Source of the DNA: a virus
Taxonomy: Duplodnaviria; Caudoviricetes
DNA: 42,936 nucleotides
Reading direction: 5' to 3' (one strand)
IMG/VR virus record: IMGVR_UViG_3300032319_000014
Location: 1 to 42,936 of that record
The notes beneath the pieces were generated by a model that was not told where the DNA came from, made no database searches, and saw only the letters and a list, made by a program, of their open reading frames with translations. Made by a program: the position numbers and the translations under genes. Shown in pieces: positions 1 to 42,936 of the stretch; the first letter of the stretch is position 1; the number at the start of each line of letters is the position of its first letter.

Positions 1-36
1 AGTTACGGAAGTAGAAACATAAGTCCAACCAGCAGA
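1..36. repeat. Imperfect repeat of window end (42901..42936)
   Basis: 33/36 identical; positions 12-36 are a perfect 25-nt match; encodes SAGWTYVS(TS/NS)VT in both copies. Confidence 0.95.
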
Positions 37-243
37 ATAACCACCTGCTCCACCGCCACCGCCACCGCCTGTTGTCTGTGTGCTTCCCGCACCACCGCCA
101 CCAATTACGATTGCATAAACTCTTTTGATTTCAGAAGGGATACCTGTGACTGTTGTTGTTCCTGTTGCAGTAAAAGTTTGTTGCAACTTGAGTCCGTAAG
201 GAGTATCAGTAAATGATGAATTGCTATAAATTGATGCGCTCAT
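1..243 (-). CDS. Glycine-rich virion/fibre-like protein, N-terminal part (runs off window start)
   Basis: ATG at 243 after GGAG; MSASIYSNSSFTDTPYGLKLQQTF...VYAIVIGGGGAG...YSAGWTYVSTSVT; paralogous to 253..1164 (PYGLRLQQT, VYAIAVGGGG, WGWT). Confidence 0.8.
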   Translation of the reverse strand, partial: MSASIYSNSSFTDTPYGLKLQQTFTATGTTTVTGIPSEIKRVYAIVIGGGGAGSTQTTGGGGGGGAGGYSAGWTYVSTSVT

Positions 244-252
244 AATTGTCTC

Positions 253-1164
253 CTAGTAGAAAAGGTAAAGTATTCCTGCGCCGCCTGCGCCAGCGGTTGC
301 TGGGGAACCACCACCCGCACCACCGCCTCCGCCACCGCCAAGTCCACCAGCGCCACCTGTTGTACCAGAACCCGCAGTACCATTACCTGCAACTCCGCCA
401 CCACCACCGCCACCTGCGCCAGCACTTGAACCTGAATTTACACCAGCACCGCCTGTTGTTTGTGCGCCAGTTAAAATGTTTATTCCGTTACCACCAGCAC
501 CGCTTATATTGTTAGTGCTTGATGATGCTGCACCCGCACCACCGCCACCTGCTAAACCATTGCCACCATTTCCTGATGTATTTGTTGCTGCACTTGTTGC
601 AGAAGAGTAACCACCACCACCGCCTGAAATACCATCGCCACCTTTACCGCCAAGAGTAATTGAAATTGAAGCAAAACCTCCGCCACCACCGGAACCGTTG
701 GTGCCATTTATTGAACCTGATGTGCCAGCAGCACCACCAGAGATACCATAATAATTTGTTGAACCAGCAGCGCCATACGAACCAGCACCGCCTAAAATAC
801 CAGCAGCGCCGTTAGCACCACCACCACCAGCAATAATATTTCCATAACGTGTATAACCACCTGAAGTGGGAGTAAGCCCACCATTTCCACCAGCGCCCAC
901 AACACAAGTTGAGTTTGCTAAAGTCCAACCCCAAGCAATTCCACCTGCTCCGCCACTACCACCGCCACCACCAACTGCAATGGCATAGACAAAAGTTATA
1001 CCAGCGGGAATTGTGACTGATGTATCGCCAGCGTTTTTAGTTTGTTGTAAGCGTAAACCGTAAGGCAAGATGAAATGTGTGTTTGCAAATGGAGTTACTG
1101 AATCACCTTGCATACCAGTTGATACAGGTGAACCCGCTTGTCCTCTGCGATTTGGATTAGCCAT
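253..1164 (-). CDS. Glycine-rich (polyglycine II-type) virion protein, putative receptor-binding
   Basis: 303 aa with GGGG/GGAG runs, AVGGGGG entry motif and hydrophobic C-terminal strand GAGILYLFY. Confidence 0.8.
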   Translation of the reverse strand: MANPNRRGQAGSPVSTGMQGDSVTPFANTHFILPYGLRLQQTKNAGDTSVTIPAGITFVYAIAVGGGGGSGGAGGIAWGWTLANSTCVVGAGGNGGLTPTSGGYTRYGNIIAGGGGANGAAGILGGAGSYGAAGSTNYYGISGGAAGTSGSINGTNGSGGGGGFASISITLGGKGGDGISGGGGGYSSATSAATNTSGNGGNGLAGGGGAGAASSSTNNISGAGGNGINILTGAQTTGGAGVNSGSSAGAGGGGGGGVAGNGTAGSGTTGGAGGLGGGGGGGAGGGSPATAGAGGAGILYLFY

Positions 1165-1526
1165 TAGGAAATCCTGTTTACATAACCTGAAATTGTGATT
1201 ACTGATGCAGTTGCGGCAAAGGCGCGAGTTGTCGCAGCAGTTGTGCCATCGCCTGTTAGCGGAAGTCCAGCAACGATTAGAACATCACCTGACTGCGGTG
1301 CGAGGGTAATTGGCTTTGCGTGTTGTACTGAGCCAGTGCCACCAAATTGAACTGTAAGCAATACTGGTGAAGTTGAAGTGTTATTGGCATATAGCCACAC
1401 TTCGTCAATGACTGAAGATGAAATTCCTGTTGCGTGGATAGTTGTACCAGTTGAGGCAGTTGCAACGACTGTAATTGGCTGACCCTGCGTTGAGCCTGAA
1501 AGAAGTGTCTTTGTAAAAGTTGCCAT
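1164..1526 (-). CDS. Hypothetical beta-rich virion protein
   Basis: 120 aa, Thr/Ala/Val-rich, coupled to next gene by TAATG overlap. Confidence 0.7.
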   Translation of the reverse strand: MATFTKTLLSGSTQGQPITVVATASTGTTIHATGISSSVIDEVWLYANNTSTSPVLLTVQFGGTGSVQHAKPITLAPQSGDVLIVAGLPLTGDGTTAATTRAFAATASVITISGYVNRIS

Positions 1527-1534
1527 TTATATTC

Positions 1535-1741
1535 CTATCCGAACACTTGGTTTGCGAGAATGTTTTGGTCATTAGAAAAATCTACAGAACCGCTACTACT
1601 TACAGCAACCCACGCTGAACCGTTGTAAACTCTTAAACCTGTTGTTGTATCGTAATACAAATCACCAGATTGCAAAGTAGGCACAGTTGGAGCACTTGCA
1701 GAGGACAAAGCATTTAGCGGAGTTAAAGATTGTCTACTCAT
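1535..1741 (-). CDS. Small tail-fibre-associated protein
   Basis: Contains the phage fibre motif GDLYYDTTTGLRVYNGSAW; GGAGG SD. Confidence 0.7.
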   Translation of the reverse strand: MSRQSLTPLNALSSASAPTVPTLQSGDLYYDTTTGLRVYNGSAWVAVSSSGSVDFSNDQNILANQVFG

Positions 1742-1756
1742 AATTGCCTCCCTCTA

Positions 1757-3283
1757 TTATGCTTGAACGACTACCCGATATTGGTTTGAAGTTGGAGCAA
1801 CGGTAAATAGTGCAGTTATCGTGTTAGTTGTTGCGTGATTTATGTCGCAAAGTACTTCCGCATAAGGTGAGGAATTGTCATAAACCGCTACTGTAACATC
1901 GCGTGTTCCAAGGCTGTGAGTAATTGTGTATGAAGTAGCAGAACCGTCTCCAATACTTGTCGCATACTTGCGGACAACAACTGATGTATCAATAGCAGCG
2001 GTAACGGCAGCAGAACCGTTAAACGATGTTCCTGTTAGCCCTGTACCTAGAGTTAAAGCGTTTGTTGTATTGGCTGTAACTGTTCCTGATGAGCCTAAAG
2101 CGATTGAAGTTCCGTTTACCGTAACTGCTGTATTTGTTAGCGCAACAGTTGTTCCTGAAACAGAGATACCTGTCCCCGCTCCAACATATAGACCAGTTGC
2201 GTCAGTAACTAAACCAGAGTTTGTTGGTTTTAGTATAGAAGCGCCGCCTGCTGCTGTTTGCAAACCGCCTGTGGACGTTGGTGCAAAAGTGAAGTTACTT
2301 CCTGTAAGTAAAATACCGTTTGAGGCAGTATATGAACCGGCGCTTGAAAATTGTGACCAGTTAATGGCAGTTGTTCCAACAGTTACAGGATTGTTAGTGG
2401 TACACACCCAACCAGTATCGGCGAGAGTTGTGCCTTCTTCAACAAATGTAAAAGCGCCAGCAAACTCTGCAGCTGTATCCATATCAGTTGCGCGTGTAGG
2501 CGCGCCTGTTGCATTAACAGTATAAATACCGTTTTCAGAAGCAGTTGCCTGATTTTTAATAAGAATTCTGTTACCGGTTGCAAGCGTTACGCCGTCAATT
2601 ACGCTTGTGTTAGCAAAAGAAGTAGCAAGAGTTCCAGCAGTTGTAGTTCCTGCTCTTACAGAAGCCTTTACATCTAGCCCTTGTGCAACACCATCTACAT
2701 AAGCCTTTGTTGCCGCATCTGTATCAGCAGTTGGAGTTCCAAGATTTGTAAGTTTGTATGTTGCCATAGACAAGTCTTGTGACGGGGTAAATGCGTGAGT
2801 GTGGTCTTGCTTTGAAGGCACAGTACCCGAACCTGCTCCACCAGCGGCACCGCTTATTGCATTAGGAGTTGCAGTACCTAAAGACGGAGTACCATGTGTG
2901 TGGTCAGCGCGAGCGTAGTTAGTTGAACTACCGTCACCGCTTGACGCGCCATAAGAAGTCTGTGCTGTTACTGTGCTAAACGCATTTGTCTGTTGCCAAG
3001 TAGAACCATTTGAATAATAAAATAAATAATTGTCTGTTGCATAATAAATAGTTCCTGAATCAACCGACCCTGCCGCAGGACGTGAAGCAAGCAAACCAAA
3101 TAGAACGGCATTACCAATAACTTCCCAACGAGTGCCGTTGTAGATGTACATTTGGTTGTCTGTTGTGTTGTAATATACTTGACCGGCAACAGGAGATGCT
3201 GGCGCAGTTGCCAAGTTTTGAATTACCGCATTTTGTAATTCGTTCTTGTTTAAGTCAATGCTAACTAAAAATTTACGAGCCAT
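1757..3283 (-). CDS. Tail fibre-like structural protein
   Basis: 508 aa; GQVYYNTTDNQMYIYNGTRW, two DHTH motifs, DAATKAYVD, RILIKNQ..ENGIY and C-terminal THSLG motifs typical of phage fibres. Confidence 0.75.
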   Translation of the reverse strand: MARKFLVSIDLNKNELQNAVIQNLATAPASPVAGQVYYNTTDNQMYIYNGTRWEVIGNAVLFGLLASRPAAGSVDSGTIYYATDNYLFYYSNGSTWQQTNAFSTVTAQTSYGASSGDGSSTNYARADHTHGTPSLGTATPNAISGAAGGAGSGTVPSKQDHTHAFTPSQDLSMATYKLTNLGTPTADTDAATKAYVDGVAQGLDVKASVRAGTTTAGTLATSFANTSVIDGVTLATGNRILIKNQATASENGIYTVNATGAPTRATDMDTAAEFAGAFTFVEEGTTLADTGWVCTTNNPVTVGTTAINWSQFSSAGSYTASNGILLTGSNFTFAPTSTGGLQTAAGGASILKPTNSGLVTDATGLYVGAGTGISVSGTTVALTNTAVTVNGTSIALGSSGTVTANTTNALTLGTGLTGTSFNGSAAVTAAIDTSVVVRKYATSIGDGSATSYTITHSLGTRDVTVAVYDNSSPYAEVLCDINHATTNTITALFTVAPTSNQYRVVVQA

Positions 3284-3292
3284 TGTTATCTC

Positions 3293-3610
3293 CTATATTA
3301 TGTAACCGGTGCCAGTGAAGGCACCTGTAAAGGTTATCACCATTTGATTAATAGACGGGTAACTAAATGTGCCTTCGCATTGTGTTCCTGCGCTATCTAG
3401 TATTACGGCGGTTGGATAGCCTCCTAAATTGTGATTTATTGTCCATACGCTAGCAGCAATTGCTTGAATGTGAGTGTAAAAAATGTCTGCTGGATTAAAA
3501 ATACCTGCCGGACCTTGCGGACCCGGACTACTTACTACAATCGTCGCTTCTTGCGGTGTTACTACCAGCGTCGTCGGTTCAATGAGTTGAACAATTACCG
3601 TCTCTGTCAT
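3293..3610 (-). CDS. Small virion protein with short collagen-like segment
   Basis: PGPQGPAG followed by WTINHNLG beta domain. Confidence 0.7.
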   Translation of the reverse strand: MTETVIVQLIEPTTLVVTPQEATIVVSSPGPQGPAGIFNPADIFYTHIQAIAASVWTINHNLGGYPTAVILDSAGTQCEGTFSYPSINQMVITFTGAFTGTGYII

Positions 3611-3959: not shown

Positions 3960-5333
3960 TTACCCCTTTAGTTCAGCGCTAATCATAGCGGTTCCGCACT
4001 TGAAACATTTTAACGCACTTTTCGGCATAGGTAATCCGCACCCCGTACAGAAATTAGCGAGCGCCGTAAAGTATGTGGCCGCGCTGCTCGTTCCAATCAG
4101 GCTACTAAATCCTTGCACCATCGCGTCTAATCTGTCAGGTGAGTCCGGGCTATCCGGTGTCCAAATTGTCATTTGCTCTTCTAGTTTGTCGAAATTGCCG
4201 ACGTGTTTAATCCTGCCCTGTTCATACATTGCCGCTACCGGCTCGGCTCGCAATTTTTTTCCTATATGCGCTCGCACTTCCTGAATCGGTAGGCTCATAT
4301 CTACTTGGCGTAATACCGCACTTACCATGTCTCCTCCCTGATTAACTTCTACGAGGATTGAATCCGCTTTATGCGTGCGGAATACTTCTACCGCTTTCTG
4401 CGCCCATTCGTTCGGGCTTCCCTTAAATGAATAATCAGCAATTACGTATCCGTTGCCAGCTGCGTCGCTACCTAACACGATAATTCCGGTTTCGTCGCTG
4501 TCTTTTGTATTAGTTACTGCCGGGTCAATGCTTACCGCCAGTCTTGCCAATGGCGGTGCGCTTTCTACTCTGTTTCGGTCAATTACTCCCTTTGTCCATA
4601 GCGCGCCTTCTACGTCATCTAATATTTCGCCATATAACTCTTGCCGGCCGAGTCTAGTTCCGTTGTATCGAGCTTGTAATTCTACGAGCGCGCTAGGTGC
4701 AAGGTTAGCCGCGTTATCAAACGTCGAGCCTCTTACTACTCGTACGGTTCCGTCGGTCTTGGCCGTTAGTTGTCTAATCAGCGGGATAGGCCGAGGAGTT
4801 GTAGTGATTACGGTTTTTGGGTGGTCGCCTAACCGTAATCCGAATTGCAGCTGGTCGTATGTCTCCGGGTATCTCCATGCCGCTAATTCATCGCACCATG
4901 CGCCATGATGTTGCGGACCACGCAATCGGTCAGGTTCGTCAGCTGAAAATAACTTTATGCGGCTACCGTTTGTTAATTTAATGTCTCCGGTAGACCGGTT
5001 GTAATATTCCAGCGCTCCGTATTGGTGCAGTATCGGTATTAGCCCTGATTCTCCCTCAGCGCATGTATCTCTTACGTCACCGAACGTAGGAGCAATTACC
5101 GCCCAGCGTGTCCAATTTTGCGTTAGCGCTTGCCACACTATCCATTCCGCTGCAGTACGTGTTTTACCCGCTCCACGCCCCGCTAGGTACAGCCAAACCG
5201 ACCAATCGTTATCCGTCGTTGGTAATTGCTCGGGTCTCGCTAAGACCGCTTCCCACGTTGCCCTGCGCGCCGCGAGATTGTCTAATGAGTTCAATAATTC
5301 GGGCTGTGTGTTCAACGAGTTGCTGACCCTCAT
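3960..5333 (-). CDS. terL: Terminase large subunit
   Basis: Walker A AGRGAGKT, LRGPQ, Walker B WCDE, TTTP coupling motif, RNase H-like DPA..SDETG..DRLDA; GGAGG SD; C-terminal CxxC..CxxC. Confidence 0.97.
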   Translation of the reverse strand: MRVSNSLNTQPELLNSLDNLAARRATWEAVLARPEQLPTTDNDWSVWLYLAGRGAGKTRTAAEWIVWQALTQNWTRWAVIAPTFGDVRDTCAEGESGLIPILHQYGALEYYNRSTGDIKLTNGSRIKLFSADEPDRLRGPQHHGAWCDELAAWRYPETYDQLQFGLRLGDHPKTVITTTPRPIPLIRQLTAKTDGTVRVVRGSTFDNAANLAPSALVELQARYNGTRLGRQELYGEILDDVEGALWTKGVIDRNRVESAPPLARLAVSIDPAVTNTKDSDETGIIVLGSDAAGNGYVIADYSFKGSPNEWAQKAVEVFRTHKADSILVEVNQGGDMVSAVLRQVDMSLPIQEVRAHIGKKLRAEPVAAMYEQGRIKHVGNFDKLEEQMTIWTPDSPDSPDRLDAMVQGFSSLIGTSSAATYFTALANFCTGCGLPMPKSALKCFKCGTAMISAELKG

Positions 5334-5685
5334 ATACCGTTACCTCCGCCTGTATCTTCGTTGGAGCGTCTAAGCCTAATAGCCGCGCTCTTCGGTCTTG
5401 TATTCGTAATACTGTGTCAATCGCTCTTAGTTCGCCGTCTTTTGCCTTATTCCATATCCCTAACTGCATTCTGTCCAGCCGGTCTAATTCCACATCTCTT
5501 AGCTCTTCTAGGTTCGGCCTTACCATTCGCTCTGCAGCTCGCTGGTACATCTTGTACGCCCCGCTAGCGTTGCGGTATCCCACTTCCGCCGCAATCTTCT
5601 CCCACGTTACCCCGGCGCGTCGTAATTCAATTATCTTCAATTCCTTCTCCAATACTGCCGGAGATGGTGCATTTTTCCTGCTCAT
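5209..5685 (-). CDS. terS: Terminase small subunit
   Basis: N-terminal HTH (LRRAGVTWEKIAAEVGY), RRARLLGLDAP motif, directly upstream of and overlapping terL. Confidence 0.85.
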   Translation of the reverse strand: MSRKNAPSPAVLEKELKIIELRRAGVTWEKIAAEVGYRNASGAYKMYQRAAERMVRPNLEELRDVELDRLDRMQLGIWNKAKDGELRAIDTVLRIQDRRARLLGLDAPTKIQAEVTVYEGQQLVEHTARIIELIRQSRGAQGNVGSGLSETRAITNDG

Positions 5686-6224
5686 ACGTTTCCTTTTCCT
5701 TTGTATAAACAGTCTGCCATAATCTGAGTAATTTCGCTACTTGTCTTATTCCCCGGTAGGTAAATTGCTTTGTACTCTTCGGCTAGGTTTCTGTGTTTAG
5801 TGGCTCTTCCTTTAGCCCATGTTAGGTTTTGCGTCTTACCTGTTTCGGCGCTTCTTGCCTCTCTTCGTGCAGCTGCCGTCTCGTTATCTGTGTTCAGGTA
5901 GAACAGGTATAGCGTTCCGTAGGTCTTTGCTAAGTCGAAGTATGTCCGGCTTGCCAGTCTGTCGCCTTCTCCGTAAATTGTTGCCTCCGCGCTCGCGTAA
6001 AACTGTGGCATAAGTGTAATTACGGTGTTACCTAGTGTGTCTGTACCGCTGAAATGTTGTCTATCCCAGCCTAATGAGTAAATCTTTCCTAGTTTTGGCG
6101 CTTCGTATTCCTGATACTTGAACGGTTTGTCATACATATTTACCTTCGCCCAATCCTTTTGAAATTCTTTTGTTAGGGTTGTTTTGCCGCTTCCCGGCTG
6201 CCCTATTAGGTAGATAGTGTCCAT
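5682..6224 (-). CDS. P-loop kinase, putative 5-hydroxymethyluracil-DNA kinase
   Basis: GQPGSGKTT Walker A, GTD and EGDRL motifs; sits in an operon with an amino acid:DNA transferase. Confidence 0.8.
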   Translation of the reverse strand: MDTIYLIGQPGSGKTTLTKEFQKDWAKVNMYDKPFKYQEYEAPKLGKIYSLGWDRQHFSGTDTLGNTVITLMPQFYASAEATIYGEGDRLASRTYFDLAKTYGTLYLFYLNTDNETAAARREARSAETGKTQNLTWAKGRATKHRNLAEEYKAIYLPGNKTSSEITQIMADCLYKGKGNV

Positions 6225-7249
6225 TTCATCGCCTCTCGCTTTGGTGCGTTGCCTACAATCCAGAATAATGATGTTCCGTCAGGGTCGTTATACCAATCGA
6301 ACATTCCCGGATTTCTCTCCATGTAATGTAACGCCTTGCCTTCGTATGTCGGGTGGAAGTCAATCCCGCTTTTTCTAAATGGCATTTTGTCGCCGTACGA
6401 ACTGAACTTAGTTGAGTGCAGGTCGTAATGTACGAGCAGTATTTGCCCGTCAGTCTGATGTTCGTCTTCTAGGTCTTTATGGTGCATGTATTTACGTCTG
6501 TACTTGTCTCGTATTACTAGCCCAGTTGCGCGTTCAATCTTGGTTAATCGCTCTTCAATCATTTTTAGCCTTGTCGGACCGATACCGAATAGCGTTATTT
6601 TCTTTATGTTTGTCTTGTATTTAGCGAGGCCGTATAAAACGCTGACGCAGCTGTTGCAGCTCCCGGCAGTTATGGCTAAGTGCGTTATTTCGTCGGGAAT
6701 GTTTTGTACTTGGTATGCCCCTACTTCGTGGAACGCTCTTACGTCTTCGTCTGTAGCGTTATCGTCTACCGTTATCCCGTAATTGAGTTTGTAATAGCCG
6801 CTGTACTCCGGCGTTTGTAACAATTTCGTTACGTTGCTCTGTATCCCCGGGTTATACGCCACTTTGCCGAACACGAACTCTGCTCCTGCATCTTGCGCTA
6901 TTGCTACGTTTTCGTGTTTAATCGCTGTCTCCGGCTTTGTGCCGCCTAGTACGCAGGTAATTGGAATGTTGTAATGTTTTGCGACTAATGCCCCCATGCT
7001 TAATTGCGGACTTAGCACGCTTGCTCCGGTGATAATTCCGGGTACGTCTAATTGACTTATCAGGTGTAGCAGTTGTCGCAGCTTGCTTCCGTTTATGCCG
7101 CCGTAACCTAATGGCGCGAAGTAATCTTCTCTTTTCCAATATATTCCGTCGCGTAATTCCACCGGCGTTAGCGTATACATGTGGTCTTCCCACTTTGTAT
7201 TTTCTCTGTTTATTCCTAGCGTCGGGAATATTGAATCGTTCATAGCCAT
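6206..7249 (-). CDS. PLP-dependent enzyme (fold type II, ACC deaminase/cysteine desulfhydrase-like), putative modified-base decarboxylase
   Basis: LTPVE..WKRED..NGSKLRQ (PLP lysine), AGSCNS phosphate loop, PTYEGKA. Confidence 0.85.
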   Translation of the reverse strand: MAMNDSIFPTLGINRENTKWEDHMYTLTPVELRDGIYWKREDYFAPLGYGGINGSKLRQLLHLISQLDVPGIITGASVLSPQLSMGALVAKHYNIPITCVLGGTKPETAIKHENVAIAQDAGAEFVFGKVAYNPGIQSNVTKLLQTPEYSGYYKLNYGITVDDNATDEDVRAFHEVGAYQVQNIPDEITHLAITAGSCNSCVSVLYGLAKYKTNIKKITLFGIGPTRLKMIEERLTKIERATGLVIRDKYRRKYMHHKDLEDEHQTDGQILLVHYDLHSTKFSSYGDKMPFRKSGIDFHPTYEGKALHYMERNPGMFDWYNDPDGTSLFWIVGNAPKREAMKWTLST

Positions 7250-8298
7250 TCCTTTATTGTGCCTTCGTCTACCGCGTTATTGTAATCGTTTGCGTACTCC
7301 GGGTATTCCTTATCCATCATAATTACCTGCCCTGTAGTGCGGTAATGGTTTTGTTTAATCGGGTGTAGGCCGAGGTCTTCCGGGCTATCTTCTATACGCA
7401 GGTGCGCCGGTAGGCAATCTTTTCTTGCTTGCCAAAATATACTTAGGTCTTCCTCCGGCCAATTATCTTCGTTTTTCTGTATGCGCCCGGCCAGCATGTC
7501 GTTATACACATTTGGGTATCGTCGGTTAGGCCTATGCCAGCTCTTGTATGTGCAAAGTGTAGATTCTAAGGTGAAGTATGAGACGTCGTATTCCCATGGC
7601 TTACCCTTTGCGCGCTCTTTAGCCGCAATCAGTAGGTCAGCGCCTTTGTTTTCTAGCCCTTGTAACAATTCGTTATCATATTTTCCGTCGAATTCCGGGT
7701 TAGATTTATGCCAGTCGTATCTATCTAACCCTGCCACTATGCATAGCCCGTTGCGGTGCGAGCGCGACCCGTTTATGTCATCTATAAATAACGTATTGCA
7801 ATCGAACGGTACTCCCATAATCCGTACGTATTCTAAATATGAAAATGTGCTGAGCCGGCCGAACGTAGCAATCTTGCTTGCTTCCTGCCACATCGCGCTA
7901 AATCCTTTTGCAGCTGTCGCGTGCCAATAATCCTTTTGTGAGTCTCCTACGAGCGCTAAGTAACTGTGTATTGCGTCTTCTAGTGACTTTTTATGGTATC
8001 TCCGGTCAGTATCGAACTCTAAGCGCGGGTAATTGTCTATGTAGAATTGAATTAACTCTTTATGCTGCTCCGGCTTCGGGAATCGTTTATGCAATATGTA
8101 ACTTGTCACCGGGTTTTGTGTATTGCCGTTGAGGAACGCAAACCATAACGCCTCTTCGTCGTTCCATTGCAATTTATCTTTGAGGTAAGGCATCAGGTAA
8201 TACACGCAGCCCGGGTGTGAGCGGTAGCGCAGATGGAATTCGTAAAAGTCTTGGAATACTTGCTCTCTGTATTCCGGCTTTCTGTAGTCTATTCCCAC
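7240..8298 (-). CDS. Amino acid:DNA transferase (aGPT-Pplase2-like, HhH-glycosylase fold)
   Basis: FDTDRRY, FGRLSTFSYLE, GSRSHRNGL, LESTLCTYK and RYPNVYND motifs; kinase and PLP enzyme neighbours. Confidence 0.8.
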   Translation of the reverse strand: MGIDYRKPEYREQVFQDFYEFHLRYRSHPGCVYYLMPYLKDKLQWNDEEALWFAFLNGNTQNPVTSYILHKRFPKPEQHKELIQFYIDNYPRLEFDTDRRYHKKSLEDAIHSYLALVGDSQKDYWHATAAKGFSAMWQEASKIATFGRLSTFSYLEYVRIMGVPFDCNTLFIDDINGSRSHRNGLCIVAGLDRYDWHKSNPEFDGKYDNELLQGLENKGADLLIAAKERAKGKPWEYDVSYFTLESTLCTYKSWHRPNRRYPNVYNDMLAGRIQKNEDNWPEEDLSIFWQARKDCLPAHLRIEDSPEDLGLHPIKQNHYRTTGQVIMMDKEYPEYANDYNNAVDEGTIKEWL

Positions 8299-9152
8299 GC
8301 GTTAGCCGGGTTTTTTAGTTGTTCGGCCATTTTATCCTCGCGCTTTGTGCGGTTCTCTGCTCCTTTTGCTGTTTCTACTGCAAACGTGAAGCAATCTTTC
8401 ATTCCGCGTAATGCGTAATAAACGATTGAGAACCTGTATGCATCCGGCGCTGTTTCTTGCATAGGTGTTACGCCATGCACATACTTGTATCCCGGGAAGA
8501 ATAAGACCCAGCCATCTCTGCACGCGCACGTTAGCGCGTATTCCGGGAAGTGTAAGTAACCCCCGCGCATGTTGCGTCGTACTACCGGCATTGCACTCCA
8601 TGTAGCGAAATTAAATCCGTCTCGGTGGTATGGCAGCGTTGAGGCTTTGTTTACTACTCCGCTTGTCCATAGCGCATCGTCTGTCATCTTCCATTCGTTG
8701 CTTATGCCGCTGGTCTCTAGCGTCTTCGCGTCAGCTTCGAATAGGTGCGGTGCAAATTCCTTAAACATTTCTCCGAACTTTTTTGCAAACGCTACCAATA
8801 CTGCATGCTCTTCCGGTTGTTCGTTAGCCAGCGTTGTAGTGCGGCAGCTTTCTCTGCGTTGAAATACTTTGCGCGGAGCCATGCCAAATGTCCGGGATTG
8901 GTTTTCCATTCCCGTACTTGCTCGCTTTGTAGTTCCGTATTTAATCCCCATGACCGAGCGCCGTAGCAGGTTTACTTCATCCTCCATCGGCATATACGCG
9001 AGGATTGGCTCCTCTGTTTCGTCGTCAATAAATAGCGCAGCGGTGCGGCAGTTAGGTTCTAAGTCCATTACCCTTACGCCGACTAATTCCGTTGCTTCCT
9101 CAGCGCTCATTACGCGCTTTACCCGAATTACCGGTAGGTCTGCTAATTTCAT
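8289..9152 (-). CDS. TET/JBP-family Fe(II)/2-oxoglutarate dioxygenase
   Basis: VNK...YHRD (HxD), GGYLHFPEY, VHGVTP (distal His), RFSIVYY (2OG-binding Arg). Confidence 0.88.
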   Translation of the reverse strand: MKLADLPVIRVKRVMSAEEATELVGVRVMDLEPNCRTAALFIDDETEEPILAYMPMEDEVNLLRRSVMGIKYGTTKRASTGMENQSRTFGMAPRKVFQRRESCRTTTLANEQPEEHAVLVAFAKKFGEMFKEFAPHLFEADAKTLETSGISNEWKMTDDALWTSGVVNKASTLPYHRDGFNFATWSAMPVVRRNMRGGYLHFPEYALTCACRDGWVLFFPGYKYVHGVTPMQETAPDAYRFSIVYYALRGMKDCFTFAVETAKGAENRTKREDKMAEQLKNPANAWE

Positions 9153-9784
9153 TTGGGAGCCGTTTCGCCGTAGTTTTCTTCCAGCAATTTTACCAGCGCG
9201 TCGGAGTTGCTTTGCGCCCCGCTCTTTAGGCGTTGCTTTCCCAGCTGCTCAATAGTCCAGATATAGACATGGTTTTCTAATTCCACCATGAATACCTTTG
9301 TATCTACCGCCTTGTATCTCTCTGCCAATCCTTCAATCTGCCCTGCAATCTCGTCTAGGCTGTTAGTTTTGATTGCCTCTTTGACGCTCGGCGTTTTTTC
9401 TTCTTCAATCTTTGCCAATACATCATCGAATTCATCATCGCCATATCCGGTATGTTCGAGGTTATCCAGCCGTTCCAGCAATTCTAACAACGCGTTATTG
9501 TCGTATCCGCTGAGGTCGCTCGTTCTATTGTCTATCAACACAATCTTTGCCGCTGTCTCCGGGTCTGCCTCAATATACGTTACGTCAATCTCTTTCCACC
9601 CGAGCGATTTTGCAGCTGCGTATGTGTGGTTACCGACCAGTATTTCATTATTTACACTATTGACTACTATCGGTTTATATTGCCCGTATTCCGTTAATGA
9701 TTCAGCAATTAGTTTTACGTCGCCTTTGCGTGGGTTTTTAGGGTAAGGCTTAAGTGTATCTACCGCTACTTTTACTGCGTTCAT
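9149..9784 (-). CDS. ParB/Srx-like domain protein (paralogue 2)
   Basis: LKPYPKNPR, YGQYKPIVV, ILVGNHT..AA..LGW, DNRTSD. Confidence 0.88.
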   Translation of the reverse strand: MNAVKVAVDTLKPYPKNPRKGDVKLIAESLTEYGQYKPIVVNSVNNEILVGNHTYAAAKSLGWKEIDVTYIEADPETAAKIVLIDNRTSDLSGYDNNALLELLERLDNLEHTGYGDDEFDDVLAKIEEEKTPSVKEAIKTNSLDEIAGQIEGLAERYKAVDTKVFMVELENHVYIWTIEQLGKQRLKSGAQSNSDALVKLLEENYGETAPK

Positions 9785-10392
9785 TCCGGCGCTTCCTCTC
9801 CTGAAATCTTCTCTATAAGTCGTATTAGCGCTTCGGTATTAGTGCCGAGGTCGTTCTCATTTCTAAATTGTTCCAGCTTCTCCGCAACCCATGTATATTG
9901 CACTTTTTCATAATCAAACATAATAATTCTTGTAGTCCGGTCATTGAGGCTTTCCTGCCATTCGTGCAACGTCTTACCCATTACCGTATTACGTAGCGTA
10001 CTTTCCGGTGCGTCAAATAATTCTTTGAGTCCGCGTAGGTCTTTATCTGTATACCCGGTCATGTTTATATCTGTTAATGAATCTAGCAATCCGTAGAGCG
10101 CTCCGTCGTCGTAGCCTCCCGCGTCGCTAGTCCGGTTATCCATCAGCACAATCTTTGCGGCTGTGTTTGCGTCTACGTCTACGTATGTTGCTGCAATCGT
10201 AGGCCAACCGAGTTTGAGCGCAGCTTGGTAAGTGTGATTACCCGCCAATATTTCGTTAGTGCGTTTATTGACTGTAATTGGTTTGTATTGGCCGTATGTT
10301 TCTAGGCTTTCTGCAATTAAATCTATATTGCCTTTACGCGGGTTATTCGGATAAGGCTTTAGCGTTATTAGCGCCACTTCTTGTATCTGCAT
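9781..10392 (-). CDS. ParB/Srx-like domain protein (paralogue 1)
   Basis: LKPYPNNPR, YGQYKPI, ILAGNHT, DNRTSD; alignable to 9149..9784 along most of its length. Confidence 0.88.
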   Translation of the reverse strand: MQIQEVALITLKPYPNNPRKGNIDLIAESLETYGQYKPITVNKRTNEILAGNHTYQAALKLGWPTIAATYVDVDANTAAKIVLMDNRTSDAGGYDDGALYGLLDSLTDINMTGYTDKDLRGLKELFDAPESTLRNTVMGKTLHEWQESLNDRTTRIIMFDYEKVQYTWVAEKLEQFRNENDLGTNTEALIRLIEKISGEEAPE

Positions 10393-19706: not shown

Positions 19707-20300
19707 ATGACAACCCTTATAGCCGTACAGCATGATGATTGGTGTTTGATTGCCGGAGATACGCAAACTACTTCTTACCACCTATCCGCTGACTGCTCTC
19801 CAATGGGTAAAATTGCGCAGAACGGTAAGTACCTTGTATCCGCTGCCGGTTTAGTCCGAGGCATGAATCTTATCCAGCACGCCTTTGCTCCTCCGGCTCC
19901 GCCCCGTTCCAACCTTGATAGATTTATGGTTAATACCTTTGTGCCAGCTTTGCGTAAATCTTTTATAGTCAATGGCTACGACATGAAAGATGATGGCGAC
20001 GTTGCCTCCCACGATAATGAGTTTCTTATCGCCGCTAATGGCGTTTTGTACCTTGTAGATGAGGTCTATGGCGTTGAGCGTACTTCTAATCGCCTTTACG
20101 TTACCGGCTCCGGTATGGAGTTAGCACTTGGCGCGGCTCATGCTCTTGGTTTGCATGAGGTAGATGATTGGGAAGAAGCCGTAGAAATTGTTGAGCAAGC
20201 CGTTAAGGTCGCTATGAAATACGACATTTATTCCGGCGGCTCTGTTCAGGTTGCTTTGCAGAATACTTCCGGTAAATCTTGGCTTACTTATCTCGGCTGA
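19707..20300 (+). CDS. Ntn-hydrolase, proteasome beta/HslV-like threonine peptidase
   Basis: MTTLIAV (Thr nucleophile), IAGDTQTT, GKI, TGSG..ALGA, DIYSGG; only convincing plus-strand gene. Confidence 0.88.
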   Translation: MTTLIAVQHDDWCLIAGDTQTTSYHLSADCSPMGKIAQNGKYLVSAAGLVRGMNLIQHAFAPPAPPRSNLDRFMVNTFVPALRKSFIVNGYDMKDDGDVASHDNEFLIAANGVLYLVDEVYGVERTSNRLYVTGSGMELALGAAHALGLHEVDDWEEAVEIVEQAVKVAMKYDIYSGGSVQVALQNTSGKSWLTYLG

Positions 20301-21006
20301 GTTTGTTTTCTTTCTTTGCGTCTCGCTCTTCTTGCAATTCTCCAAATGTTCGCCGCGCCATTTTTTTATTGAAATGTCTAATGTTATTAGCCGGTATTCC
20401 TATTTTGTTTGTAGGCAGCGTTATAGCCAATAAGTCGCTTGCGTCTTGATTTCCGTACCCTGCGTCTAGTATTGCCGCATCATCGGGGAATACCTCTGCG
20501 TGCCGGTCTGTTTCTTTGTTAATTAAGTGGTCTTGCTTACCGCCCATTGAATAAAGATACTTGAAATTTACCGGGCAATTTGGTTCTACCAATTCTTTGA
20601 ACATTGCCACTTCTTTTGTATAGCAATAAAACGTTACTTCCGGTGTAAGCCGGGCAATCTGTAGCCACAATTCTAAATATTCTTTAGAGAAAAAATCTCC
20701 CGCGTCATGTATCCGTATGTACTTGCCAGTCATTTTCGGCTTTTGCACTTCCGCAAGCATTTGTCCCATCCACCCTAGCGGGTCTTCCATAATGTATTCT
20801 AGGTTTTGTATGTGTCGCTTTTTTACATTGCTAAAATTGTATGTACCATTTCTTGCATAGCAAAAACTTGCGCACGCTCCCGCATTTGGACAGACATTAA
20901 AATTGTCTCCGTTAGTTAATTTTATTGCAAACGCCGGTAGCGTCCAATTGTAAATACCATCAGGCCGCAGCTCGCTGTTTTGTGTTAATAGTTTTGCTGG
21001 TCTCAT
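20284..21006 (-). CDS. Gp88-like protein (Cys-cluster, radical-SAM-like)
   Basis: WTLPA, CPNAGACASFCYA, RIHDAGDF, FYCYTK. Confidence 0.75.
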   Translation of the reverse strand: MRPAKLLTQNSELRPDGIYNWTLPAFAIKLTNGDNFNVCPNAGACASFCYARNGTYNFSNVKKRHIQNLEYIMEDPLGWMGQMLAEVQKPKMTGKYIRIHDAGDFFSKEYLELWLQIARLTPEVTFYCYTKEVAMFKELVEPNCPVNFKYLYSMGGKQDHLINKETDRHAEVFPDDAAILDAGYGNQDASDLLAITLPTNKIGIPANNIRHFNKKMARRTFGELQEERDAKKENKLSRDK

Positions 21007-38655: not shown

Positions 38656-38790
38656 TTATTTCTCCTCTGAATGTTCGGTAATTGTACCCTGAGTGTCCGG
38701 CTTTTCGTGCGGTGTAGGTTCGCCGTTAGTCTTTTTTAGCCACACTATTCCTACGCCATCATCTATAAATCTGTTGCGCTCTTCGCTCAC
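38656..38790 (-). CDS. 44-aa protein coupled to MuF-ART, candidate immunity peptide (not in ORF track)
   Basis: GGAGGT SD, GTGA overlap; MSEERNRFIDDGVGIVWLKKTNGEPTPHEKPDTQGTITEHSEEK. Confidence 0.7.
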   Translation of the reverse strand: MSEERNRFIDDGVGIVWLKKTNGEPTPHEKPDTQGTITEHSEEK

Positions 38791-40262
38791 TTAATTACCT
38801 CCACCTTAATTACCCGGTCGTAAATTGAATTAGCGTTAGCCGGGCTGTCATCGTATCCCGTAATTCTAAACTTTGTGCCAGCTTGTAATAGGAATTCTGA
38901 TTCTTGGCGCTGGTATAGACCGTCTATTGCTAGGCCTTTTCCTCCGGCCGGTACTGTAATCTCTAATCGCGTAGACCCGAATGAATACGATTTAGAGTGT
39001 TCAAACGTGGTAGATACGAACCCTTTATCTTGGTATTCGCTTCCTACTCCAGCTCCCCATAATTCATTGCCGTATTGAGTGTTTACGCCTCTGAATACAA
39101 TAATCGGTTCGGTTAGCGGTTTTGTGCGGTCAATTACCGGTTTGAGGTTTTCAATAAGAGGTTTTAATTCGGCAATTCTTTGCTCTTGCCTCTCTAACCT
39201 TACCCCTCTTCCGAATGCGATGTTACCTTCACGCAAGTATCGGTTGATTATGAAATAGTCTTCGCCTTTGTATGCATGAACCGCTGTACGCTCGGCTTCC
39301 GTTAGCGTAGGTTTGATTGCAGTTGCTTGCGTAGTAGTTAATGCGCGGTATTCGCTGTCGCTTAATACTCTTGCCTCTTGCTGCGCGGCCGGTGCAGCTT
39401 CTTCAGCCGGCATAATGTTATCTACCCCGCTGGTATTAGGCTCCGCGTAATACGCCTCGTCAATTACCGGTAATACTGCGCAGCGGCAGTTCGGGTGTAC
39501 CGGCGGCTCTGTATCTCCGCTGTTGAACGCTTCTCCGGTTGTAACTACTTGCCCCTCGTTAGGTGCGCAAATGTCGCAAGGGTTTGCCCCGCTCCACTCC
39601 ACCTTCTCTATGCCCCCGTTTTGGTAATTCTGCATCGCCGCTAGGCTCATCGCTCTGTTTTGCTCGGTAATTGCAATCGTTAGCGCTCGCGCCGGGTCGC
39701 CTATCTTTTCTGTAATTACTTTTGCAGCTCTCGCCGGGCTGAATCCGGCCGCAATCGAATCAGCGAGCGCAGTTCCAATCCGGTCGAATCCGTTAGCGGC
39801 TATTTTTTTACTTGTAATTCCAGCATCGTTGAGTAGTTTTTCGAATGCTCCTGTAGGTCTGTATAGGAGTGCGGCCGCGCGGTTTCCCGGCTTCCAATTA
39901 TTCCAGTCTACGTAATCCGGGCTTTCTTCTTTCTTCTTGGCCTTTGTAATTGCAGCTTTGTTGTATTCAGTCTTTGCTTGGCTTATAGCCTCTGCGCTTG
40001 CGTCTAACCCGAGTAGGAATCCATCTGTATAAATCTTTTTTAGCGCTCCGGCTATCGGCTCTGTATCAATCTTTACATGCAGCATAGCCCACGCGCGAGC
40101 GCGGGTACGGTCTTGCGTAATGTTATCTGTGACAAACGGGTGCGTATCCTGATACGCCTCATAGATTGCACGCGCGTTAATACTTGCCCGGAGTGCAGCT
40201 CGCATCGTTACTGAATTCTTTGCCGCTATGCGCACATCGGCCTTATGTGCGCCCCACGTCAT
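38787..40262 (-). CDS. MuF/SPP1 gp7-like minor head protein fused to VIP2-like ADP-ribosyltransferase
   Basis: MuF: RA..IA.TE..CDIC..PPVHPNCRC; ART: Y....Y..IN.YLR, VFRG, FVSTT, ESEFLL. Confidence 0.92.
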   Translation of the reverse strand: MTWGAHKADVRIAAKNSVTMRAALRASINARAIYEAYQDTHPFVTDNITQDRTRARAWAMLHVKIDTEPIAGALKKIYTDGFLLGLDASAEAISQAKTEYNKAAITKAKKKEESPDYVDWNNWKPGNRAAALLYRPTGAFEKLLNDAGITSKKIAANGFDRIGTALADSIAAGFSPARAAKVITEKIGDPARALTIAITEQNRAMSLAAMQNYQNGGIEKVEWSGANPCDICAPNEGQVVTTGEAFNSGDTEPPVHPNCRCAVLPVIDEAYYAEPNTSGVDNIMPAEEAAPAAQQEARVLSDSEYRALTTTQATAIKPTLTEAERTAVHAYKGEDYFIINRYLREGNIAFGRGVRLERQEQRIAELKPLIENLKPVIDRTKPLTEPIIVFRGVNTQYGNELWGAGVGSEYQDKGFVSTTFEHSKSYSFGSTRLEITVPAGGKGLAIDGLYQRQESEFLLQAGTKFRITGYDDSPANANSIYDRVIKVEVIK

Positions 40263-42312: not shown

Positions 42313-42936
42313 TTACCAGTAAAGAAAAACAACGCCGTTACCACCTGAACCAGAAGTTCTATTATTTGCAGCAGCACCACCGCCACCGCCTCCTGAACCA
42401 CCGTTACCACCAGTAGTTGATGTTGCAGCGGCACCAGCGCCTGTGTATCCGCCACCACCGCCACCGTGACCTCTAGTTACTCCTGAAGAATTATCACCTG
42501 CTCCACCCGCATAAAAATCTCCTGTGCCACCAGCGCCACCTGTGGTAGCACCTCCGCTGTAGGCACAACCACCGCCACCGCCAATAATTCCATTGCCGCC
42601 TTTACCAGCAGTACCGCTAACTCTTCCACCACCGCCACCGCCAGAAACACCATCGCCACCTGCGTTATTGATGGCACCTCCACCACCTGCATATCCGTAA
42701 ATACTAGCAATAGCCGCAGGTGCACTTGTATAAGAAGAAGTTGAAGTTGTACTAGAAGAAACTACAGAAGTTGCTCCTGCTGCTGCGCCAGCACTATTTG
42801 CCGAAGCACCGCCACCGCCACCGCCAGCCATCACTATTCCATAAATACTTGAACCACCCGAAACGCCTGCAGCGCTTGAGCCAGTACCGCCAATACCGAC
42901 AGTTACGCTATTAGAAACATAAGTCCAACCAGCAGA
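42313..42936 (-). CDS. Glycine-rich virion protein, C-terminal part (5' end outside window)
   Basis: Frame open to the window end: SAGWTYVSNSVTVG...GNGVVFLYW. Confidence 0.8.
   Translation of the reverse strand, partial: SAGWTYVSNSVTVGIGGTGSSAAGVSGGSSIYGIVMAGGGGGGASANSAGAAAGATSVVSSSTTSTSSYTSAPAAIASIYGYAGGGGAINNAGGDGVSGGGGGGRVSGTAGKGGNGIIGGGGGCAYSGGATTGGAGGTGDFYAGGAGDNSSGVTRGHGGGGGGYTGAGAAATSTTGGNGGSGGGGGGAAANNRTSGSGGNGVVFLYW
42901..42936. repeat. Imperfect repeat of window start (1..36)
   Basis: 33/36 identity. Confidence 0.95.

What the first reader, a model, noticed from the sequence alone, without database searches (positions are those of the whole stretch)
5682..9152. Compact, apparently fully post-replicative thymine hypermodification operon headed by a TET/JBP dioxygenase
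Seen: four overlapping genes, TET/JBP > amino acid:DNA transferase > PLP enzyme > P-loop kinase. Established: phages ViI and M6 use a 5hmU-DNA kinase, an aGPT-Pplase2 transferase and a PLP decarboxylase, but obtain 5hmU before replication through dUMP hydroxymethylase and their own polymerase. JBP enzymes oxidise T to 5hmU in DNA. Seen: no thymidylate-synthase homologue, dCMP deaminase, polymerase or C5-methylase in the window. Inference: T > 5hmU > phospho-5hmU > aminoacyl-T > decarboxylated amine base, made entirely on DNA replicated by host enzymes. With no radical SAM gene in the operon, a ViI-like product (serine > aminoethoxymethyl-U) or a new base is plausible. Such gene links have been predicted computationally; I know of no biochemical characterisation of this arrangement.
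Basis: partly seen in the sequence, partly recalled or inferred. Interest (0 to 1): 0.8.

Follow-up and report, generated by a model that had tools for sequence, protein, structure and literature searches.

The report
Dioxygenase-started phage thymine hypermodification cassette
A freshwater phage carries six overlapping genes that likely oxidise some thymines in its finished DNA and rebuild them into a bulky amino-ether base; this pathway design is already published and partly tested, so it is a solid new example whose end product is still unmeasured.

Summary
Catalytic residues are kept. The transferase and PLP enzyme are of the phage ViI type (27% and 38% identity). No thymidylate-synthase family or C5-methylase gene was found in this genome or in a complete relative with the same cassette. 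In 54 related loci the kinase accompanies all 28 amino-acid transferases and none of 19 glycosyltransferase-like cassettes. Most likely route (inferred): T > 5hmU > 5-phosphomethyl-U > O-seryl-T > 5-aminoethoxymethyl-U, all on DNA. I found no paper showing the full route or product. This dioxygenase lies on an actinophage branch distant from the tested enzymes (30% over 122 aa), and the amino acid is not fixed. The genome lacks GATC entirely, which argues against blanket restriction protection. The scan noted this design before on other DNA. New member of a known kind.

The parts
9781..10392 (-). ParB-like protein 2 (203 aa), predicted activator of the dioxygenase
   Evidence: Pfam ParB_N 26.5 bits, cut-off 26.3; 45% identical to its neighbour; overlaps next gene by 4 nt
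9149..9784 (-). ParB-like protein 1 (211 aa), predicted activator of the dioxygenase
   Evidence: Pfam ParB_N 29.9 bits; N-terminal domain aligns with the ParB of the 5mYOX176 locus, but weakly by BLASTP (23%, E 0.08)
8289..9152 (-). TET/JBP Fe(II)/2-oxoglutarate dioxygenase (287 aa), predicted T > 5hmU on DNA; actinophage branch with a short variable insert
   Evidence: Pfam Tet_JBP; H176, D178, H226, R240 invariant in 18 of 18 aligned relatives; model pLDDT 75.6, best Foldseek hits CcTet and NgTET1; 30% over 122 aa to 5mYOX176
7240..8298 (-). Amino acid:DNA transferase (aGPT-Pplase2, 352 aa), ViI gp247-like
   Evidence: Pfam ADDT; E245 and C249 align with E243 and C247 of PaMx11 gp46; 27% to ViI gp247, E 3e-24; tree
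6206..7249 (-). PLP-dependent enzyme (347 aa), ViI gp226-like, predicted decarboxylase
   Evidence: 38% to gp226, E 1e-71; K56 aligns with gp226 K92 and M6 gp52 K36; model matches D-cysteine desulfhydrase / ACC deaminase fold, including 1j0a
5682..6224 (-). P-loop kinase (180 aa), predicted 5-hmU DNA kinase
   Evidence: Pfam Ploopntkinase3 78.3 bits; Walker A kept; profile of 45 related kinases hits PaMx11 gp49 E 6.6e-7, M6 gp54 4.7e-4, ViI gp243 8e-4
5209..5685 (-). Probable terminase small subunit (158 aa); context, overlaps the kinase by 4 nt
   Evidence: Inferred from position before the large subunit; only hit is phrog_645; conserved at this place in relatives
3960..5333 (-). Terminase large subunit; context
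   Evidence: Pfam Terminase_6N and 6C

Best explanation
Six overlapping genes next to the terminase likely form a post-replicative thymine hypermodification pathway that would turn some thymines of the finished phage DNA into 5-(2-aminoethoxy)methyluracil, the base of phage ViI. Steps, all inferred for this phage: (1) the TET/JBP dioxygenase, helped by one or both ParB proteins, oxidises T in DNA to 5hmU; (2) the P-loop kinase phosphorylates it; (3) the transferase attacks C6 with Cys249, expels phosphate and adds serine through its side-chain oxygen; (4) the PLP enzyme removes CO2. Shown here: the genes, their families, catalytic residues, linkage and the lack of a pool-level 5hmU source. Shown elsewhere for homologues: step 1 (PMC13229309), steps 2-4 on 5hmU DNA (PMC8989533). 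Only part of the thymines would be modified, probably by sequence context.
For: Families and residues. ViI type: tblastn of the transferase against 50,697 phage records finds 376, listed by organism as Ackermannviridae-type hosts, mycobacteriophages and few others; no Pseudomonas group is among the ten named groups (five small ones are not named). A 62-sequence profile scores ViI gp247 146 bits against 1.9 (M6 gp51), 1.6 (PaMx11 gp46), 11.4 (PhiW-14 gp109). Tree: one clade with gp247, support 95/85. At 15 active-site columns the window matches ViI at 9, M6 6, PaMx11 5, PhiW-14 4. A PLP enzyme needs a free alpha-amine and there is no radical SAM isomerase, so the amino acid should be joined by its side chain (logic from PMC8989533 section 19, passages). 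No other 5hmU source; the family search does detect the M6 enzyme; complete relative G004 (terminal repeats) has the cassette and no PF00303 or PF00145. Co-variation: of 57 dioxygenase loci 54 show the whole slot; kinase in 28 of 28 with a transferase, 0 of 19 with glycosyltransferase-like genes, 7 kinase-only; ViI-type transferase goes with PLP (9 of 9), glycine-type with an FAD oxidoreductase (19 of 19). Natural fusion of this dioxygenase type to this transferase type, P0069. Same four activities in another order in 4 contigs of lower GC (L092-L095). The locus of the tested 5mYOX176 has the same layout, ParB > dioxygenase > ADDT > probable FAD enzyme > P-loop protein > terminase.
Against: No experiment on any of these six proteins. 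The dioxygenase is only 30% identical over 122 aa to 5mYOX176 and lacks most of the variable insert that was essential there; the window's HxD motif string was not found in the 12 supplementary files. Several ParB-linked enzymes tested in E. coli gave little or no 5hmU, including both two-ParB loci (0% with one ParB; 0.7% with both), and purified enzymes also oxidised 5mC. ViI gp247 sits on a long branch (3.17) and the tree tool warns the join may be false; 6 of 15 active-site columns differ from ViI, in an alignment at 14-26% identity. The kinase gives no pairwise BLASTP hit below E 0.1 to the three characterised kinases compared, and a homologue stands before the terminase in mycobacteriophage Fang, which has no Tet_JBP or PF00303 match. 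One of 5 close relatives has a C5-methylase match elsewhere in its genome. The window's own ends could not be joined.
Confidence: 0.55

Rival explanations
1. The same post-replicative route would run, but the transferase would add another side-chain nucleophile than serine (cysteine, threonine, homoserine, ornithine or lysine), so the decarboxylated product would be a base not yet described or a known base made by a new route.
For: Only 27% identity to ViI gp247, long branch; pocket columns differ and are conserved in the window's clade: G30 in 62 of 62 (ViI Q), T60 in 61 of 62 (ViI C), D267 in 62 of 62 (ViI E). Characterised family members already use glycine, serine and putrescine.
Against: The PLP enzyme is a full-length gp226 relative at 38%, which suggests a similar substrate; ViI is by far the nearest characterised transferase.
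Confidence: 0.25
2. The dioxygenase would act mainly on host-made 5-methylcytosine (or another methylated base), and the downstream enzymes would build a cytosine analogue at a few sites.
For: Two purified phage enzymes oxidise 5mC about as well as T; best structural matches are 5mC/6mA dioxygenases, as expected from what is solved; Burke et al. note kinases beside C5-methylase/TET pairs (passage); one relative has a C5-methylase match.
Against: No C5-methylase in the window, in 4 of 5 close relatives or in 5 of 5 further records, some incomplete; ParB linkage and the C-terminal extension mark the T-oxidising subclass; all characterised transferases of this family act on 5-phosphomethyl-U.
Confidence: 0.08
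3. The cassette would be only partly active: little or no modified base is made, and the kinase (and ParBs) would serve mainly in packaging next to the terminase.
For: Kinase homologues in 384 phage records, 373 of them mycobacteriophages, against 64 mycobacteriophage records with the dioxygenase; Fang has the kinase alone. GATC absent from the genome, 0 against 91 expected.
Against: All frames intact; synonymous differences exceed non-synonymous ones in all 5 genes compared (for example dioxygenase 98 to 36, transferase 103 to 55); in the phage's own family the kinase is absent wherever a glycosyltransferase-like gene fills the slot, 19 of 19, so it is not needed for packaging there.
Confidence: 0.12

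Closest known systems
ParB-dependent phage T-dioxygenases, 5mYOX clade C1, e.g. 5mYOX176/ParB176 (O'Toole et al., PNAS 2026, PMC13229309)
   Same: ParB gene directly upstream of a Tet_JBP enzyme, C-terminal extension after the last conserved Cys, no C5-methylase, transferase and kinase downstream, terminase next.
   Different: Separate sequence branch (30% over 122 aa; short variable insert); two ParB paralogues; PLP enzyme in place of the FAD enzyme. The paper tested only the oxidation step; 'PLP', 'pyridoxal', 'decarboxylase' occur 0 times in its main text.
Salmonella phage ViI 5-NeOmdU pathway: gp67/gp243 kinases, gp247 serine:DNA transferase, gp226 PLP decarboxylase (Lee et al., NAR 2021, PMC8989533)
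   Same: Transferase and PLP enzyme are the nearest characterised relatives; catalytic Glu, Cys and Lys kept; no radical SAM enzyme.
   Different: ViI gets 5hmU before replication and has its own polymerase; its genes are scattered over 157 kb. Here 5hmU would be made on DNA and the genes overlap in one run of a 43-kb siphophage.
TET_JBP-linked T-hypermodification contigs of Lee et al. 2021 (Fig. 2, sequences 22-25)
   Same: Same idea stated in print: TET_JBP in place of dUMP hydroxymethylase, no 5mC source, adjacent hypermodification genes.
   Different: Computational only. I could not see the figure, so I do not know whether a PLP gene is drawn in those four sequences.
Cluster B4 mycobacteriophages (e.g. 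Fortunato, KX589269) and Glutamicibacter phage Montesquieu (OV696619)
   Same: Fortunato: ParB > dioxygenase (43-45%) > transferase (45%) > kinase > terminase. Montesquieu: transferase (40%) > PLP (32%) > kinases.
   Different: Fortunato has no PLP gene in that cluster (would stop at O-seryl-T). Montesquieu has a hydroxymethylase-type gene and a polymerase instead of the dioxygenase. I found no chemistry on either.

Membership tests
TET/JBP (5mYOX) dioxygenase | PF12851 match above cut-off; HxD...H iron triad and 2-oxoglutarate-binding Arg | tested here: met
   35.9 bits, cut-off 34.9; H176, D178, H226, R240 invariant; role of the Arg is recalled knowledge
TET/JBP (5mYOX) dioxygenase | TET-like fold | tested here: met
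   Model pLDDT 75.6; top hits CcTet 7vpn E 1e-10, NgTET1 5cg8
ParB-dependent T-dioxygenase subclass (clade C1) | Adjacent ParB with N-terminal nucleotide-binding domain, no neighbouring C5-methylase | tested here: met
   Two ParB_N genes; no PF00145
ParB-dependent T-dioxygenase subclass (clade C1) | C-terminal extension beyond the last conserved Cys | tested here: met
   C254 aligns with the Cys of 5mYOX176, followed by 33 residues, mostly helix
ParB-dependent T-dioxygenase subclass (clade C1) | Long variable insert, essential in tested enzymes | tested here: not met
   About 33 alignment columns of the 5mYOX176 insert have no counterpart; alignment there is uncertain
ParB-dependent T-dioxygenase subclass (clade C1) | Falls inside clade C1 by similarity network or tree | tested here: inconclusive
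   E 9e-10 pairwise to 5mYOX176; long branch of 2.63 from two C1 rows; clades A, B, C2, D were not in my tree
ParB-dependent T-dioxygenase subclass (clade C1) | Oxidises T in DNA, stimulated by cognate ParB | not testable with these tools
   Needs the in vivo or in vitro assay
Amino acid:DNA transferase (aGPT-Pplase2) | PF18724 match; catalytic Glu and Cys | tested here: met
   71.4 bits; E245, C249 in 62 of 62
ViI-type serine:DNA transferase | Nearest characterised relative is gp247 | tested here: met
   long-branch warning
ViI-type serine:DNA transferase | Uses serine through the side-chain oxygen | not testable with these tools
   6 of 15 active-site columns differ from ViI
gp226-type PLP decarboxylase | Full-length homology, aldimine Lys, fold type II | tested here: met
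   no Pfam PALP hit for the window protein itself
5-hmdU DNA kinase | PF18751 match and Walker A | tested here: met
   78.3 bits
5-hmdU DNA kinase | Close similarity to a characterised kinase | tested here: inconclusive
   No pairwise hit below E 0.1; profile hits E 6.6e-7 to 8e-4; ViI gp67, PhiW-14 gp37 and SP10 gp186 not compared
ViI/M6 pre-replicative 5hmU route | dUMP hydroxymethylase (PF00303) and own DNA polymerase | tested here: not met
   positive control M6

The most novel reading that the evidence does not exclude
A biochemically untested actinophage branch of thymine dioxygenases, lacking the insert essential in tested enzymes and switched on here by a pair of ParB paralogues, feeds a transferase that adds an amino acid other than serine, so that the phage makes a DNA base not yet described, wholly after replication; related phages swap this module for glycine/FAD, sugar or phosphate-only modules in the same slot before the terminase.
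Probability: 0.2. Interest if true: 0.6.

Novelty: new member of a known kind. Interest (0 to 1): 0.3.

Why it matters
If right, a 43-kb phage with no polymerase or nucleotide-pool enzymes gets a ViI-type hypermodified base from six small genes, which makes a portable cassette for writing an amine handle onto ordinary DNA. It would complete, end to end, a route so far predicted (2021) and tested only at its first step (2026). The same dioxygenase branch is in about 100 records of cultured actinophages, so native DNA can be analysed. The swapping of four module types in one slot gives a natural series for asking what each base is for.

Tried and rejected
Sequence search of solved structures gave nothing significant for the dioxygenase (best E 0.46), the PLP protein or the transferase profile. 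A GTDB scan with the transferase alignment found 0 relatives among 159 pattern matches, although a later scan with the dioxygenase found a locus that holds one (L098), so that blank is a sensitivity limit. No RNA holder listed; this says nothing on expression. Laying contigs on both ends did not close the gap; both ends lie in similar glycine-rich genes between terminase and portal. Promoter scan: 5 sites against 14.6 in shuffles, uninformative. Test whether TG-containing palindromes escape avoidance: not significant (4-mers p 0.13, n 2 against 14; 6-mers p 0.64). GATC avoidance does not follow the cassette type. The PLP tree was largely unresolved. No complex prediction for ParB with the dioxygenase was obtained, so binding is untested. 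Rejected labels: 'queuine tRNA-ribosyltransferase' (phrog_6059 and GenBank) for the dioxygenase, 'terminase small subunit' or 'adenylate kinase' for the kinase, because Pfam, residues and fold point elsewhere. Iyer et al. 2013 was not available; I know it only through papers that cite it. The supplement of Burke et al. 2021 could not be read, so I cannot say whether its inactive TET67/TET79 or clade D belong to this branch.
Full report
1. Setting. The window is the whole record G000, one linear contig of 42,936 nt rated 100% complete by CheckV. It is a siphophage genome with portal, terminase, tail, SSB, RusA, replication initiator and WhiB genes. An actinobacterial host is inferred from WhiB, from actinophages being the closest cultured relatives of the dioxygenase, and from two GTDB hits in an Actinomycetota and a Rhodoluna metagenome-assembled genome (these may be binned phage contigs). 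Holders of the DNA with an environment label and a share above 0.2 are freshwater metagenomes.

2. Observation. Confirmed. The four ORFs lie at the given coordinates on the minus strand and overlap by 10, 10 and 19 nt. Two ParB_N genes overlap the run upstream by 4 nt each and the kinase overlaps the probable small terminase by 4 nt, so the unit is ParB2 > ParB1 > TET/JBP > AADT > PLP > kinase > TerS > TerL. The absences hold: nothing among 58 ORFs against Pfam and PHROGs, no PF00303 or PF00145 in six frames, no tblastn hit better than E 0.19 for 14 control proteins, while ViI gp226 and gp247 hit at 4e-68 and 1e-21. PF00303 does detect the M6, PaMx11 and Montesquieu hydroxymethylase-type genes. 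The gap could not be closed, but a relative with terminal repeats (G004, 39,065 nt) carries the same six genes at 74-87% identity and has neither family. PF00303 was absent from 5 of 5 close relatives and PF00145 from 4 of 5; the fifth has a partial match elsewhere.

3. The enzymes. Dioxygenase: Tet_JBP just above cut-off, H176, D178, H226 and R240 invariant in 18 aligned sequences, TET fold by model. Transferase: ADDT 71.4 bits; E245 and C249 align with E243 and C247 of PaMx11 gp46, the pair described as essential or active-site in PMC8989533 (section 17) and PMC11472151 (passages). It is 27% identical to ViI gp247 and gives no pairwise hit below E 0.1 to M6 gp51, PaMx11 gp46 or PhiW-14 gp109; profile scores are 146 against 1.9, 1.6 and 11.4 bits; a 25-row tree joins it with gp247 at 95/85, with a long-branch warning. 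PLP enzyme: 38% to ViI gp226, no hit to M6 gp52; K56 aligns with K92 and K36; its model matches the D-cysteine desulfhydrase / ACC deaminase fold, including 1j0a, the template Lee et al. report for gp226. Kinase: Ploopntkinase3 78.3 bits; only weak profile similarity to three characterised kinases.

4. Comparative evidence. A scan of IMG/VR gave 57 loci with a relative of the dioxygenase. In 54 the whole slot up to the small terminase is visible; 3 are cut and were left out. The slot holds: ViI-type transferase + PLP + kinase (9), glycine-type transferase + FAD oxidoreductase + kinase (19; PaMx11-like), kinase only (7), or glycosyltransferase-like genes without kinase (19: nine T4 beta-GT-like and seven GT-B-like by Atlas features of one representative each, two TAGT by Pfam of one, one by weak similarity). 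At 95% identity these are 27 clusters; 9 transferase groups all have the kinase and 15 glycosyltransferase groups none. The groups are related, so this is not a clean statistical test, but the modules alternate along the dioxygenase tree. This is what a 5hmU hub predicts: sugars are added directly, amino acids need the phosphate. All five gene types stand in the window's order on 14 distinct contigs (13 IMG/VR, 1 GTDB) and, with transferase and kinase fused, in another order on 4 contigs of 35-45% GC. One database protein fuses this dioxygenase type to this transferase type (P0069, one contig). The transferase has 1,946 relatives at E 1e-10 among 2,435 candidates. Synonymous differences exceed non-synonymous ones in 5 of 5 genes compared.

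5. Mechanism. Most likely T > 5hmU > 5-phosphomethyl-U > O-seryl-T > 5-(2-aminoethoxy)methyl-U, on DNA copied by host enzymes. Every step is inferred for this phage. I put about 0.8 on a working T-modifying route through all four enzymes, of which 0.55 for the serine product and 0.25 for another side-chain-linked amino acid. Without an isomerase the PLP enzyme needs a free alpha-amine, which rules against N-linked glycine. Six of 15 active-site columns differ from ViI, so serine is not certain.

6. Results against a simple reading. The dioxygenase is distant from the tested ones. A motif scan retrieved loci whose protein reads as the printed 5mYOX176 (compared by eye); identity is 30% over 122 aa, and most of its essential insert has no counterpart. 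Two-ParB loci in that study gave 0% and 0.7% 5hmU. A kinase homologue is kept in mycobacteriophage Fang without dioxygenase or hydroxymethylase. GATC occurs 0 times against 91 expected and many 6-bp palindromes are depleted, whereas ViI and M6 stretches keep GATC (91 of 109, 87 of 95 expected). Avoidance is seen in 6 of 9 loci with this cassette and also in loci with other cassettes, so it follows lineage or host. It suggests that the base does not give blanket protection, in line with partial, context-limited oxidation in tested enzymes, or a role tied to packaging.

7. What is known. Lee et al. (PMC8989533; I read the outline, passages and sections 15, 17, 21, 23, not the figures) established steps 2-4 and described contigs with TET_JBP in place of dUMP hydroxymethylase. 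O'Toole et al. (PMC13229309; parts 1-6 of 7 of the main text, parts 1-2 of 4 of Dataset S11, rows of Dataset S2, supplement searches; figures not seen) showed ParB-activated T oxidation up to about 35% of T and note constant linkage to kinases and transferases. Burke et al. (PMC8256090), the gp46 structure paper (PMC11472151) and Flodman et al. (PMC6449724) were read as passages; bioRxiv 10.1101/2025.08.14.668559 only as a listing. Searches showed no paper that reconstitutes the dioxygenase-to-PLP route or reports a product for this branch; the library lacks most subscription papers, and the unread Burke supplement may bear on the branch. Earlier notes of this scan describe the same design in other genomes; they are unchecked and were seen after my reading was formed.

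8. Verdict. Real, intact and well supported, but a new member of a published kind. What remains open and testable: activity of this dioxygenase branch, need for two ParBs, and the identity of the base. Interest 0.3.

Noticed in passing
window 1-42936: GATC is absent (0 against 91 expected) and many 6-bp palindromes are depleted; in related loci the absence is patchy and does not follow the modification cassette.
   Followed up: partly
L022, L025, L026, L027, L036, L049, L064 (between dioxygenase and terminase): ParB + dioxygenase + kinase with no transferase in the slot; would leave 5-phosphomethyl-U as an end product, or is a reduced cassette. L022 and L025-L027 are close relatives of the window (85-86% in the dioxygenase).
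   Followed up: partly
L037, L038, L043 and 16 more: Same slot holds a glycine-type transferase, an FAD oxidoreductase and the kinase, a PaMx11-like set without acetyltransferase in the slot; predicts 5-aminomethyl-U made after replication.
   Followed up: partly
L023:2635-4004 and 8 more; L028:6507-7454 and 6 more: Genes without Pfam hit that resemble T4 beta-glucosyltransferase (308 aa, with a 148-aa partner of unknown function) or GT-B enzymes (315-326 aa) follow the dioxygenase; base-J-like sugars are possible.
   Followed up: partly
P0069: 608-aa natural fusion of a dioxygenase and a transferase of the window's types, seen on one contig.
   Followed up: partly
L092-L095: ParB > PLP > transferase-kinase fusion > dioxygenase > terminase in phages of 35-45% GC.
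   Followed up: partly
L001 (Fortunato 1-3462) and L091: ParB > dioxygenase > ViI-type transferase > kinase without PLP gene; the GenBank record of Fortunato does not annotate the dioxygenase ORF. Cultured test case for O-seryl-T.
   Followed up: partly
L101:1-567 (mycobacteriophage Fang gp1): Kinase homologue before the terminase with no dioxygenase or hydroxymethylase match in the genome; function unexplained.
   Followed up: partly
window 38787-40262: MuF-like head protein fused to an ADP-ribosyltransferase domain.
   Followed up: no
window 19707-20300 (+) and 20284-21006 (-): An HslV/proteasome-like gene on the plus strand, against the rest of the genome, converging on a GP88-family gene.
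   Followed up: no
window 1-1526 and 42313-42936: Both contig ends fall in similar glycine-rich genes in a variable block between terminase and portal; likely cause of the assembly break.
   Followed up: partly
G002:C1:16665-16991: One close relative with the same cassette has a partial C5-methylase match elsewhere in its genome.
   Followed up: no
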